From positions 26,560,001-26,624,000 of the forward strand of contig CP068257.2 in assembly GCA_009914755.4 (NCBI GenBank): a DNA stretch of 64,000 nucleotides, in the 5' to 3' direction. Position numbers and translations under genes: made by a program. This document shows, piece after piece, positions 1-64,000 of this stretch (its first letter is position 1; each line of letters begins with the position of its first letter). The DNA is from the human T2T-CHM13v2.0 reference genome, Homo sapiens. The notes below the pieces were generated by a model. That model was not told where the DNA came from. It ran no database searches and saw only the letters and a program-made list of their open reading frames with translations.

Positions 1-549
1 TCATTACTTATGCAAATATCTGCAGCTGGCTTGAATTTCTCCTCGGAAAATGGAATTTTCTTTTCTATCACATTGTCAGGCTGCAAATTTTCTGAACTTT
101 TATGTTCTGCTTCCCTTTTAAAATCGAATGCCTTTAATAGCACCCAAGTCACCTCTTGAATGCTTTGCTTCTTAGAAATTTCTTCCATCAGATACCCTAA
201 ATCATCTCTCTCAAGTTCAAAGTTTCACAAATCTCTAGGGCAGGGGCAAAAATGACACCAGACTCTTTACTAAAAAATAACAAGAATCACCTTTGCTCCA
301 ATTCCCAACAATTTTCTCATCTCCATCTGAGACCACCTCAGCCTGGACTTTATTGTTCATATCACTATCAGGCTTTTAGTCAAAGCCATTTAACAAGTCT
401 CTAGGAAGTTTTACACTTTCCCACATCTTCCTGTCTTCTTTTGAGCCCTCCAAACTGTTCCAACCTCTGCCTCTTACCCAGTTCCAAAGTCACTTCCGCA
501 TTTTCAGGTACATTTTCAGCAACACTCCACTCTACTGCTACCAATTTAC
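1..549 (-). mobile_element. Probable internal region of an ERVL-MaLR element (THE1/MST-like), partial, running off the window edge; decayed tRNA-Leu-like primer-binding site at ~526-543
   Basis: Lies immediately on the PBS side of the minus-oriented LTR at 550-900. Reverse complement of 526-543 reads TGGTAGCAGTAGAGTGGA. By eye it matches TGGCAGCGGTGGGATTCG (complement of a tRNA-Leu 3' end) at 11/18, with most mismatches CpG-type transitions. No alignment computed. Confidence 0.35.
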
Positions 550-900
550 TGTATTAGTCCGTTTTCATGCTGCTGATAATGACATGCCCAAGACTGAGAA
601 GAAAAAGAGGTTTAATTGGACTTAGAATCCCACATGGGGAGTCCTTAGAATCATGGCGGGAGGTGAAAGGCACTTCTTACATGGCAGCAGCAGGAGAAAA
701 TGAGAAGGATGCAAAAGCAGAAACCCCTGATAAAACCATCAGCTCTCGTGAGACTTATTCACTACCATGAGAATAACAGAAGGGAAACTGCTCCCATGAT
801 TCAAATTATCTGTCACCAGGTCTCTCCCACAACACATGAGACTTATGGGAGTACAATTCAAGATGAGATTTGGTTGGGGGCTCAGAACTAAACTATGTCA
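550..900 (-). mobile_element. ERVL-MaLR LTR, THE1/MST family (5' LTR of the element continuing to position 1)
   Basis: Begins tgtattagtcc and ends caaaccaaactatgtca. This is the reverse complement of the THE1/MST consensus TGATATGGTTTGG...GACTAATACA. Internal landmarks are present: atcatggcgggaggtgaaagg, cacaacacatgagacttatgggagtacaattcaagatgagatttgg. Confidence 0.8.
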
Positions 901-904
901 CAAA

Positions 905-61375: not shown

Positions 61376-62164
61376 CCTCCCTACAGCAGAGAGTTCCTGG
61401 CTCAAAATGTCAATCACACTGATCTTGAGAAACTCTGGTTTCAGTTTAGCCATATTTGCCACTTTCTTTGCATTTCATTTTTCTTGCTTCCCATACTTTA
61501 CGTCTGAGCTCACTGTCCCTCTACATGAATCAAGGGTATATTCTCAACAAACTCAGTTTTTGTTGTTGTTCTCTCTCTCTCTCTTTCCTTCAGCTTCTTT
61601 TAACTTTATCTTTATCCTTGAAATTTATTTTGCAAAGTATGAAATTATAGAACGGAAGTTTTCTTTGGGTTACACATCAACTGTGGACAAATAAGCTGGC
61701 AACTTAGTACTCACTCATTTGAAAGAAACCTTCCCTTTTATCTCTGACTGTTATGCAGCTCTTCCTTCAGGTATTTGATGTACTGATGTGCACTATGGTG
61801 TATCACAGTGTAGATTTCTTATTATTTTTCCTGCTCGGAGTTCACTGGGCTTTTTGAATCTGCGAACAAGTATATTTAATCACTTCTGGAAAATTCTTAA
61901 CTATTACTTCTTCTTCACATTTTGCCACTGTTTCTCCCCTCTCTACTCTTCTTAAAGACCAATTAAACATGTTGGAGCATATTCAGAACCTCCATGTCTC
62001 ATAACCACTTTTTCATGTTTTCCATCTTTTTTGGCCCCTTGTGCACCATTCTGGATATAGATCCTAGATTACTAATTATCTCTTTAATTGTAGTATTCTG
62101 ATGTTCAACCAAACCATTGAGATTTTTCTGTTAGTTATTTGATTTTTTATTTCCAGAAACTCAA

Positions 62165-62461
62165 TTTTTTTTTTTGAGATGGAGTCTTGCTCTGTCACCC
62201 AGGCTGGGCTAGAGTGCAGTGGCACAATCTCAGCTCACTGCAACCTCCACCTGCCAGGTTCAAGCAATTCTCCTGCCTCAGCCTCCCAAGTAGCTGGGAC
62301 TACAGGTACATGCCACCATGCCCAGCTAATTTTTTGTATTTTTAGTAGAGATGGGGTTTCACCATGCTGGCCAGGCTGGTCTCAAACTCCTGACCTCGTG
62401 ATTCATCTGCCTCGGCCTCCCAAAGTGCTGGGATTATAGTGGTGAACCACTGTGCCCAGCC
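62165..62461 (-). mobile_element. Alu SINE (minus orientation) with poly-T (A-tail) at 62165-62175
   Basis: tttttttttttgagatggagtcttgctctgtcacccaggctgggctagagtgcagtggcacaatctcagctcactgcaacctccacctgccaggttcaagcaattctcctgcctcagcctcccaagtagctgggactacaggtacatgccaccatgcccagctaattttttgtatttttagtagagatggggtttcaccatgctggccaggctggtctcaaactcctgacctcgtgattcatctgcctcggcctcccaaagtgctgggattatagtggtgaaccactgtgcccagcc. Confidence 0.95.
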
Positions 62462-64000
62462 CCCAATTTGATTTTTTCCCCAAATCTGCTATGCTTCATT
62501 TCATATTTCCCATTTCTTCCAGATTTTAAAGCTAGTGTTTTATTTCTTTAAAAGAGTAAGAATAGTGAATTTTTATTATCTGTAATCACTACATTTAAAA
62601 TACATGCAGATCTATTTCTTCTGTTTCTTTTTTTTTCCTGCTGTTTCTTGCTCATGATATTTTGTTTTATTGTGTACTCAGTTGTCTTAGAAGGATATGC
62701 CCATTTTACAAAAAGAATATTTACAGGACTCTTTAAGGACTAGATGAGGTTGCCCTCCTCAAGATGATTTGGCTTTGCTTCTAGGTACACTAAGAGTCTG
62801 AGAATTCTTCAATTCAAGTTCATAGTTTGAGGACACTGAAAACACTAATCTCAGGATGTGAATGCAAAACTTCAGGGACTGTTTTCTACCTTTCTTTGTC
62901 TCCTAAGCTCATATATGCCCTAAGCGTGTAACTCTTTAATGACCCAGCTTAATGATGGGAGGGTCTTTACTACATTTCCCACCTTGATGGGTTCAAGACC
63001 TTGATTCTTCAAGGCCACAAATATGAAGCCCAAATCTACTTAGATCGTTCAATGCCTTTGGGACAAAAGTGGGTTTATTTCTACGTGCCTGCTCACATAT
63101 CTGGACACCTGCTTCCCCTACAATTTTGTCCCAGTTGCTCCTCATTGGCTAATCTAATCTTCAATACTTTTAGAGACATTTAAAAAAAATACATGTTCTG
63201 TACTATTAATGGCTTTTACAAAAGGATGTGCTCAATAACTAGCCAATATTAAAGTAACTTGTTAAAACATGGTGTCTTATATGTAATGCTCAGTGAATAT
63301 CTACAGCTTGTCGGTGATTAAAATTTCTAATATTCTTGACATAAAGTCATTGTATGATGCACTAGGATGTTAGGAGTCTAATGGATAACATTTATTATGA
63401 CTTAGAGTTATTATGAAGGTTAAATAAAAATTAAATAAATTGCTATCCACATGAATATATTATGCTTATGTTGGCAAAGCTAAAAATTTGGTATCTCACC
63501 TAATGAAAATATTAACAATTTCAGTTAGCTTTTGATGTAATAATAACAGATATCATAGAGTTGAGGTTTGTCATACTCCAGGTACCTGTATTATCTCATT
63601 TAATCATCAAATCTATCTCTAAGAAATAGATCATTTTACAGAAGAAAAACAATGGAACACAAGGAAGTTAAAGTACCTAAAGTCACACAGCTGGTAAGTG
63701 ACGAAGACAGAATTAGGCCTCAAGACTATAACTCTTGAACCCATGATCTTAACTATATGAAATTACTTTATTTCCACATGTTGGCTTCTATAGAATCAAT
63801 TTTATTTATAGGAAGCTGGTAAACAATTAAGTCAATGACAAAAACTTTTAACATTCCTAAAATCCCTAATAAATATAAATCCATATTTTCACTTTGTCCT
63901 GGAGGACTTACTTGCAAAAGAAATGGATCATTCTTTTAAAAATTTAAGTTTCATTCCTAAGAGACCTTATTTAATTTTATATCTCTGATCACCAAAATAT

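What the first reader, a model, noticed from the sequence alone, without database searches (positions are those of the whole stretch)
1..64000. Window is primate nuclear DNA, not a prokaryotic locus; no coding system present
Seven Alu elements with A-tails, multiple L1 fragments (including a recognisable L1 5'UTR), THE1/MST-type LTRs and MIRs are all primate/mammal-specific repeat families. The longest six-frame ORFs are translations of purine microsatellites, Alus, LTRs or L1 ORF2 debris. There is no ORF packing, no Shine-Dalgarno spacing, and no CpG island. Any 'novel system' here has to be a repeat-derived or regulatory feature, not an operon.
Basis: partly seen in the sequence, partly recalled or inferred. 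Interest (0 to 1): 0.5.

Follow-up and report, generated by a model that had tools for sequence, protein, structure and literature searches.

The report
Ordinary primate repeat-rich non-coding DNA
The window is an ordinary gene-poor stretch of Old World primate (probably human) chromosome, made of Alu, L1, MIR, MaLR and ERV-L retroelement remains with no detectable protein-coding gene, so it holds no prokaryotic or novel system.

Summary
The window has 35.4% GC and a CpG observed/expected ratio of 0.18, with TG/CA excess and no CpG island. It contains exactly seven Alu elements, all with A-tails and six with clear target-site duplications. It also holds about ten L1 fragments, three of them with Pfam RVT_1 remnants and one an orphan L1PA-type 5'UTR. 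There are three full-length THE1/MST-like MaLR LTRs, about ten MIR fragments, and purine and CA microsatellites. One Alu is AluY-like, which points to an Old World monkey or ape, probably human.

It has a 5-bp CAGGT target duplication, a complete 455-bp 3' LTR, a truncated 5' LTR, and a pol remnant reading RNase H, integrase, dUTPase.

About 7,000 aa of the longest and best-scoring non-repeat ORFs found nothing among 5.8 billion proteins. The ERV-L pol control found 83 mammalian relatives. No tRNA or Rfam family reached threshold.

My five probes mask 24.7%, which is a lower bound, so the predicted ">50% masked" is untested. No primate assembly was available, so the locus is unknown. The finding is already known and of low interest.

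The parts
550..900 (-). MaLR (THE1/MST-like) LTR, full length, 74.6% identical to a recalled THE1B consensus
901..3095 (+). L1 fragment covering the 3' half of ORF2 and the 3'UTR (L1HS positions 3628-5833, 72% identity). An RVT_1 remnant lies at 923-1552.
3405..6969 (+). Cluster of further L1 ORF2/3'UTR fragments: 3405-3726, 4254-4903 (RVT_1), 5011-5289 (inverted), 5295-6223 and 6717-6969
8354..8675 (+). AluS-like element with a 23-nt A-tail and a target-site duplication of about 17 bp
8997..9296 (+). AluY-like element (91% to AluY), with A-tail and an exact 13-bp TSD, AAAATTAATTTCA
9483..9804 (-). AluS-like element with A-rich tail and a 16-bp TSD. It is inverted relative to the Alu at 8997.
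14162..14411 (-). L1 3'-end fragment. Its repeat partner is 6720-7045, matching 14029-14359 at 79% identity.
15432..15745 (+). AluS-like element with A-rich tail and a 15-bp TSD
20418..23293 (-). Internally deleted ERV-L provirus including its 5-bp CAGGT target duplications (20418-22 and 23289-93)
20423..20877 (-). ERV-L 3' LTR, complete at 455 bp, running from TG to CA
21497..22900 (-). ERV-L pol remnant in one frame with about 9 stops. Domain order is RNase_H, Integrase_H2C2, rve, dUTPase.
22979..23288 (-). ERV-L 5' LTR, first ~310 bp only, 86.3% identical to the 3' LTR and fused directly to pol
27739..28031 (+). (AAAG)n/(GGAA)n purine microsatellite, the source of the two longest ORFs (153 and 154 aa)
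28568..28893 (-). MaLR (THE1/MST-like) LTR
36523..37754 (+). Orphan L1PA-type 5'UTR (L1HS positions 12-835). It is the GC-richest 2 kb of the window and no ORF1 follows it.
39210..39417 (-). MIR fragment, the strongest of about ten (E 2e-21). The others are at 7266, 8180, 11148, 18273, 23418, 31657, 49273, 51201 and 63583.
39702..40040 (+). Old AluJ-like element (73% identity) with an A-rich tail
47793..49101 (+). L1 ORF2 fragments, with an RVT_1 remnant at 47897-48484 and a 3' portion from 48484 onward
57329..57509 (-). Alu right-arm-only element (a 5'-truncated Alu or a free right monomer) with an (AAAC)n-type tail and a 15-bp TSD
61020..61375 (-). MaLR (THE1/MST-like) LTR. The 121-aa ORF at 61142-61507 is its antisense translation.
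62156..62461 (-). AluS-like element with A-tail

Best explanation
The window is non-coding nuclear DNA from an AT-rich, gene-poor region of a catarrhine primate genome, most probably human. It is either intergenic or deep within an intron.

Its recognisable content is the product of successive retroelement insertions. MIR and old L1 fragments are the oldest layer. MaLR LTRs and one ERV-L provirus follow, then L1PA-type fragments. Seven Alus arrived over a long period: one AluJ-like, four AluS-like, a right-arm-only copy closest to AluS, and one AluY-like.

The L1 and Alu copies were inserted by L1 target-primed reverse transcription. What is shown is A-tails plus 12-17 bp target duplications; the mechanism itself is inferred from established knowledge. 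The ERV-L copy was inserted by retroviral integrase (a 5-bp duplication is shown). It later lost part of its 5' LTR together with gag, pro and RT in a single internal deletion, which is inferred from the direct LTR-to-pol junction.

Germ-line CpG methylation followed by deamination explains the five-fold CpG deficit. Nothing in the window is organised as, or homologous to, a prokaryotic or viral gene system.
For: - Composition: GC 35.4%, CpG o/e 0.176, TG and CA at about 1.2, and no CpG-island window.
- Alus: seven copies with A-tails and TSDs. Best subfamily matches are one AluY, one AluJ, and AluS for the other five, one of them a right-arm-only copy.
- L1: matches to both nucleotide and ORF2p probes, and RVT_1 above the Pfam cut-off in three fragments. 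A-rich AT skew (+0.2) falls where L1 lies in the + orientation.
- MaLR and MIR matches.
- ERV-L: an LTR pair at 86% identity, the CAGGT duplication, and Pfam rve, RNase_H, dUTPase and Integrase_H2C2 in a single frame. A dUTPase C-terminal of integrase is the ERV-L arrangement (PMC1224870). 83 homologues were found, named from Macaca, Papio, Pongo, Homo, Callithrix, Tamandua and Loxodonta.
- Absence of genes: no protein homologue for about 7,000 aa of non-repeat ORFs, no tRNA, no Rfam family at gathering score. ORF lengths are near the Markov null.
Against: - No primate genome assembly or Dfam library was available, so the species and locus are not established. The repeat consensi for Alu, L1HS, THE1B and MIR were recalled from memory. 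The L1HS probe checks itself, since it gives intact ORFs of 338 and 1275 aa.
- Only 24.7% of the window is explained by these probes. The remaining 75% is unclassified rather than shown to be unique.
- About 30,000 aa of short or low-scoring non-repeat ORFs were not searched, so small exons could be present.
- Non-coding RNA genes outside Rfam, and regulatory elements, cannot be tested here.
Confidence: 0.93

Rival explanations
1. The window is primate DNA but lies inside a gene and contains one or more real exons, coding or lncRNA, that my screen missed.
For: Only about 7,000 of about 36,800 aa of non-repeat ORFs of 30 aa or more were searched. Exons shorter than about 30 aa, UTR exons and lncRNA exons are invisible to a protein search. 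A GC-rich patch at 29780-30150 (GC 0.55-0.58) is unexplained.
Against: The searched set was the longest ORFs plus those with the best human codon-usage score. A typical 40-codon exon is expected to score about 14 bits, and everything at 5.65 bits or more was included. The set included the ORFs of the GC-rich patch, and there were no hits, while the control worked. There is no CpG island, and 35% GC is typical of gene deserts.
Confidence: 0.15
2. The window is a prokaryotic, viral or metagenomic contig, or a chimera of one with host DNA, and a microbial segment is hidden in the unclassified 75%.
For: The scan's other windows presumably come from such collections. ERV-L pol homologues do occur on ENA/JGI metagenome contigs as host contamination.
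Against: CpG depletion and low GC run the whole length. Primate and mammalian repeats are spread from 550 to 63759 with no repeat-free block larger than about 5 kb. No ORF exceeds 154 aa, and no tRNA or Rfam hit was found. An exact 30-mer from the window is absent from the genome, metagenome and viral contig collections.
Confidence: 0.01
3. The DNA is from a non-catarrhine primate (New World monkey, tarsier or strepsirrhine), or from a catarrhine other than human.
For: No assembly was available. AluS and AluJ are shared by all anthropoids. The AluY call rests on a 3-point identity margin (91.0% against 88.2%) using consensi recalled from memory.
Against: The best match of the youngest Alu is AluY, a subfamily that expanded in catarrhines (established knowledge). 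Nothing here distinguishes human from ape or Old World monkey, so 'human' is only a prior.
Confidence: 0.25

Closest known systems
Alu SINEs (AluJ, AluS and AluY subfamilies), primate-specific 7SL-derived retroposons
   Same: Dimeric, about 280-300 bp, with 7SL/SRP similarity, A-rich tails and 12-17 bp target duplications. Identity to the subfamily consensi is 73-91%.
   Different: Nothing unusual. One copy is right-arm only (57361-57509).
LINE-1 (L1PA/L1M families)
   Same: ORF2p and RVT_1 homology, 3'UTR matches, and an L1PA-type 5'UTR.
   Different: All copies are fragments with many stops. The 5'UTR at 36523-37754 has no ORF1 behind it, which is the opposite of the usual 5' truncation.
ERV-L / HERV-L (class III endogenous retrovirus with MLT2-type LTRs)
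   Same: The pol order is RNase H, integrase, dUTPase, with the dUTPase C-terminal of integrase. It has a 5-bp target duplication, TG...CA LTRs of about 455 bp, and no env-sized region. Relatives are 67-80% identical in primates and other placentals.
   Different: It is internally deleted: the distal part of the 5' LTR, gag, pro and RT are all missing. The MLT2 subfamily assignment rests on recollection of LTR termini and was not tested against Dfam.
MaLR LTRs (THE1/MST) and MIR SINEs
   Same: Full-length alignment (positions 1-363) to a THE1B consensus at 73-75% identity. MIR core matches are 60-72% identical.
   Different: At 73-75% identity these are more likely MST or an older MaLR subfamily than THE1B itself. 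No internal MaLR sequence was identified.

Membership tests
Alu (primate SINE) | Dimeric 7SL-derived body of about 280 bp matching the Alu consensus | tested here: met
   Six full-length copies and one right-arm copy, 67-91% identical to the consensus. Sub-threshold Metazoa_SRP hits fall on each arm.
Alu (primate SINE) | 3' A-rich tail and flanking target-site duplication (L1-mediated insertion) | tested here: met
   All seven have A-rich tails. Six have clear 12-17 bp duplications and the old Alu at 39702 has only a weak one.
LINE-1 | ORF2 reverse-transcriptase homology | tested here: met
   tblastn with L1 ORF2p gave combined E values of 1e-154, 1e-76 and 2e-59. Pfam RVT_1 scored 37.7-65 bits against a cut-off of 29.6 in three fragments.
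LINE-1 | Intact ORF1 and ORF2 (a potentially active element) | tested here: not met
   All fragments carry multiple stops. There is no credible ORF1p match: a single 30%-identity hit at E 5.7e-4 and nothing downstream of the 5'UTR.
ERV-L (class III ERV) | dUTPase domain located C-terminal of integrase in pol | tested here: met
   In one frame, Pfam places rve at residues 223-319 and dUTPase at residues 400-467. The trait is described in PMC1224870.
ERV-L (class III ERV) | Paired LTRs with TG...CA termini and a short target duplication | tested here: met
   The 3' LTR is 455 bp and runs from TG to CA. The 5' LTR remnant is 86.3% identical to it, and CAGGT lies on both flanks.
ERV-L (class III ERV) | gag-pro-pol present (a complete provirus) | tested here: not met
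   The 5' LTR is fused directly to the sequence just upstream of RNase H, so gag, pro and RT are absent.
CpG island / promoter | At least 200 bp with GC>=0.5 and CpG o/e>=0.6 | tested here: not met
   None of the 200-bp windows, stepped by 50 bp, qualifies.
Prokaryotic operon / coding locus | High coding density with long ORFs that have protein homologues | tested here: not met
   The longest ORF is 154 aa. ORF statistics are near the Markov null. There were no homologues for about 7,000 aa of non-repeat ORFs.
Human reference genome locus | Near-identical alignment to GRCh38/T2T | not testable with these tools
   No primate assembly is available in any tool. An exact 30-mer from the window is absent from the three contig collections.

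The most novel reading that the evidence does not exclude
One of the LTRs might act as a stage-specific promoter or enhancer for an unannotated transcript. The candidates are the intact 455-bp ERV-L 3' LTR, the 5' LTR remnant, and the three MaLR LTRs. The setting would be, for example, DUX4-driven cleavage-stage transcription, which is known to use HERVL and MaLR LTRs (PMC8699294). The 5' LTR remnant carries CAATCTAATCA at 23130-23140, one mismatch from the DUX4 consensus TAATCTAATCA. However, one-mismatch matches in the window are no more frequent than chance (5 observed against 3.7 expected), and strict TAAYBBAATCA sites are absent from the LTRs.
Probability: 0.04. Interest if true: 0.2.

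Novelty: already known. Interest (0 to 1): 0.04.

Why it matters
The value is practical. This window should be removed from any search for prokaryotic or viral systems, and its long ORFs should not be treated as gene candidates, because they are translations of microsatellites, LTRs, L1 and ERV-L remains. The work also shows that mammalian ERV-L pol fragments sit in metagenome-derived protein sets as host contamination, which is worth knowing when interpreting 'dUTPase' or 'integrase' hits from metagenomes. It raises no new biological question.

Tried and rejected
1. Locating the source. An exact 30-mer (33450-33479) was searched in genome contigs, metagenome contigs and viral contigs and gave no match. 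An exact look-up of the 121-aa ORF at 22217-22582 found it not on record. The locus therefore remains unidentified.
2. Exon hunting. I built a codon-usage log-odds score and max-segment ranking. It mostly recovers GC-rich repeats (Alu, L1 5'UTR, ERV-L). The best non-repeat candidates and the longest non-repeat ORFs gave no protein hits.
3. Rfam. Nothing reached gathering score. At E<=0.01 the hits are Alu-derived (Metazoa_SRP, mir-1268, mir-3135), except two weak mir-297 hits, one of which lies on an (AC)n repeat. All are below the family cut-offs and were rejected as genes.
4. DUX4 sites in the ERV-L and MaLR LTRs. Matches are not above chance and none in an LTR is strict.
5. L1 ORF1 downstream of the orphan 5'UTR. 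None was found.
It was repeated with stops written as X.
7. Not attempted: Pfam and PDB scans of the remaining ~30,000 aa of short ORFs, because sensitivity is low for ~40-aa exon pieces and PDB coverage is partial.
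Full report
**Question.** The claim listed seven Alus, L1 fragments including a 5'UTR, THE1/MST LTRs and MIRs. It also stated that there is no CpG island, no ORF packing and no coding system. I tested each element of the observation and then the interpretation.

**Composition.** The window is 35.4% G+C. Its CpG observed/expected ratio is 0.176, while GpC is 1.01 and TpG and CpA are about 1.2. This is the signature of germ-line CpG methylation and deamination in vertebrates (established knowledge). No 200-bp window, stepped by 50 bp, reaches GC>=0.5 with CpG o/e>=0.6, so there is no CpG island. 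The GC-richest 2 kb (36-38 kb, GC 0.48) turns out to be an L1 5'UTR, described below.

**Alu.** blastn with an Alu consensus finds exactly seven elements:

| Coordinates | Strand | Best subfamily match |
|---|---|---|
| 8354-8648 | + | AluS-like |
| 8997-9283 | + | AluY-like, 91.0% (88.2% to AluSx) |
| 9521-9804 | - | AluS-like |
| 15432-15718 | + | AluS-like |
| 39702-40006 | + | AluJ-like, 73% |
| 57361-57509 | - | right arm only, closest to AluSx (83%) |
| 62169-62461 | - | AluS-like |

- A 25-mer from the Alu right arm matches six times against zero expected.
- Rfam at a relaxed threshold gives Metazoa_SRP, mir-1268 and mir-3135 hits only at these places. All are below the gathering scores.
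- Every copy ends in an A-rich tail. Six have clear 12-17 bp direct repeats flanking them, for example an exact AAAATTAATTTCA around the Alu at 8997. The old Alu at 39702 has only a weak one. These are the marks of L1-mediated target-primed reverse transcription.
- The four full-length AluS-like copies are 85-90% identical to the AluSx consensus.
- The subfamily consensi were recalled from memory. Alu is restricted to primates, and AluY expanded in catarrhines (established knowledge). The host is therefore an Old World monkey or ape. 'Human' is a prior, not a result.

**L1.** I used an L1HS sequence recalled from memory. It checks itself by yielding intact ORFs of 338 and 1275 aa.
- Nucleotide and ORF2p searches find fragments at 901-3095, 3405-3726, 4254-4903, 5011-5289 (inverted), 5295-6223, 6717-6969, 14162-14411 (minus strand), 47793-48484 and 48484-48777.
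- As an independent check, Pfam RVT_1 scores above its curated cut-off in three of them.
- All fragments carry many stop codons.
- The + strand is A-rich (AT skew about +0.2) exactly where L1 lies in the + orientation.
No ORF1 follows it, so it is an orphan 5' piece.

**MaLR and MIR.** Three LTRs align end to end (positions 1-363) with a recalled THE1B consensus at 73-75% identity. They lie at 550-900, 28568-28893 and 61020-61375, all on the minus strand. That identity suggests MST or an older MaLR subfamily rather than THE1B itself. About ten MIR fragments were found. The strongest are at 39210-39417, 31657-31822 and 63583-63759, with E values from 2e-21 to 1.5e-14.

A direct repeat of 86% identity (20567-20879 and 22979-23290) brackets a GC-richer stretch.
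- On the minus strand, one reading frame carries a pol remnant interrupted by about nine stops. Pfam assigns it RNase_H, Integrase_H2C2, rve and dUTPase in that order (single ORFs).
- A dUTPase C-terminal of integrase is the ERV-L arrangement. It is distinct from the betaretroviral position (N-terminal of protease) and the lentiviral position (within pol) (PMC1224870).
- Alignment of the two repeat copies shows that the 3' LTR is complete. It runs from 20877 down to 20423, is 455 bp long, begins TGCGATGGTTAAT and ends CTGACTAATACA.
- The 5' LTR starts at 23288 with TGTGATGGTTAAT. It breaks off after about 310 bp and joins pol directly, just upstream of RNase H. A single internal deletion therefore removed the rest of the 5' LTR together with gag, pro and RT; this is inferred from the junction.
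- The pentamer CAGGT flanks both ends, at 23289-23293 and 20418-20422. This is a retroviral target-site duplication and shows that the whole structure is one integration event.
- The LTRs are 86.3% identical over 313 bp, so the insertion is old. At roughly 2e-9 substitutions per site per year this implies tens of millions of years. That rate is assumed, not measured here.

**Coding test.**
- The longest ORF is 154 aa. The eight ORFs of 120 aa or more are translations of the following:
  - the (AAAG)n microsatellite, on both strands;
  - an (ATAAT)n repeat;
  - antisense L1;
  - a MaLR LTR, twice;
  - the ERV-L integrase;
  - one stretch of unique sequence containing (CA)15.
- Stop-to-stop ORFs of 100 aa or more cover 15% of the bases. 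A 2nd-order Markov null gives a mean of 7% and a maximum of 11.5%. The small excess comes from repeats and retroelement remnants, and the figure is far from microbial coding density.
- I masked the identified repeats, which cover 24.7% of the window. I then concatenated the 24 longest unmasked ORFs (2,057 aa) and the 102 unmasked ORFs with the best human codon-usage score (4,934 aa, every ORF at 5.65 bits or more; a typical 40-codon exon is expected to score about 14 bits).
- Neither query found a single protein at E<=1e-3 among 5.8 billion sequences.
- The ERV-L pol remnant, run as a positive control, found 83 proteins at E<=1e-10. Its best hit was 80% identical. Source names include Macaca mulatta, Papio anubis, Macaca fascicularis, Pongo pygmaeus, Homo sapiens, Callithrix jacchus, Tamandua and Loxodonta. 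The database therefore does contain mammalian proteins, and the negative result is meaningful for the ORFs tested.
- No tRNA and no Rfam family at gathering score was found.

**Origin.** An exact 30-mer from unique sequence is absent from the bacterial/archaeal genome collection, the JGI metagenome collection and IMG/VR. An exact look-up of one ORF found nothing. No tool holds a primate assembly, so the chromosome and gene context are unknown.

**Limits.**
- The repeat consensi were recalled from memory, and Dfam/RepeatMasker was unavailable.
- The GC-rich patch at 29780-30150 (GC up to 0.585) is unexplained. Its ORFs have no protein match, and an old LTR is my guess.
- About 30,000 aa of short or low-scoring ORFs were not searched.
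- lncRNA exons and regulatory elements cannot be assessed with these tools.

**Verdict.** The window is ordinary catarrhine-primate repeat-rich non-coding DNA. Its features are textbook retroelements inserted by known mechanisms. It is already known and of very low interest for a search for novel systems. The only reading with any novelty is an LTR acting as a stage-specific promoter. That reading has no support beyond a one-mismatch DUX4-like motif occurring at chance frequency.

Noticed in passing
window 20418-23293 (minus strand): An internally deleted ERV-L provirus with a CAGGT target duplication, a complete 455-bp 3' LTR and a 5' LTR cut after about 310 bp and fused to pol. The pol remnant (RNase H, integrase, dUTPase) is still in one frame.
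   Followed up: yes
window 36523-37754: An orphan L1PA-type 5'UTR (L1HS positions 12-835) with no ORF1 or ORF2 behind it, which is the reverse of the usual 5' truncation of L1. It accounts for the GC peak at 36-38 kb. What lies at 37755-39209 is unclassified.
   Followed up: partly
window 29780-30150: A patch of about 350 bp with GC 0.52-0.585 in an otherwise 30-40% GC region. It is CpG-poor and its ORFs on both strands have no protein homologue. It may be an old LTR or another repeat that I could not probe.
   Followed up: partly
window 8354-9804: Three Alus lie within 1.5 kb. The pair at 8997-9283 (+) and 9521-9804 (-) is inverted with a spacer of about 240 bp, the kind of arrangement that forms double-stranded RNA and is A-to-I edited if transcribed. 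This was not tested.
   Followed up: no
window 57948-58016 and 52679-52779: There are two short tandem duplications in otherwise unique sequence: a perfect 34-bp x 2 duplication, and a 52-bp x 2 duplication at 94% identity. The perfect one looks recent.
   Followed up: no
window 4614-4808 vs 5015-5198: An inverted repeat of 88% identity lies inside the L1 cluster, formed by an inverted L1 ORF2 segment between two + strand L1 segments. It could be an L1 inversion (twin priming) or two nested insertions.
   Followed up: no
proteins P0001, P0005, P0008, P0011-P0016 and others: Many of the closest ERV-L pol relatives come from ENA, JGI and Logan metagenome or run assemblies. One cluster has 831 members, and some are labelled 'dUTPase'. 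This indicates mammalian host contamination in metagenome-derived protein sets.
   Followed up: no
window 9130-9181, 15563-15614, 8562-8621, 39921-39980 and others: Sub-threshold Rfam hits to mir-1268 and mir-3135 all fall inside Alu elements. The two mir-297 hits lie at 29220-29288, on an (AC)n repeat, and at 51460-51530. They reflect repeat-derived miRNA families rather than genes at these positions.
   Followed up: partly
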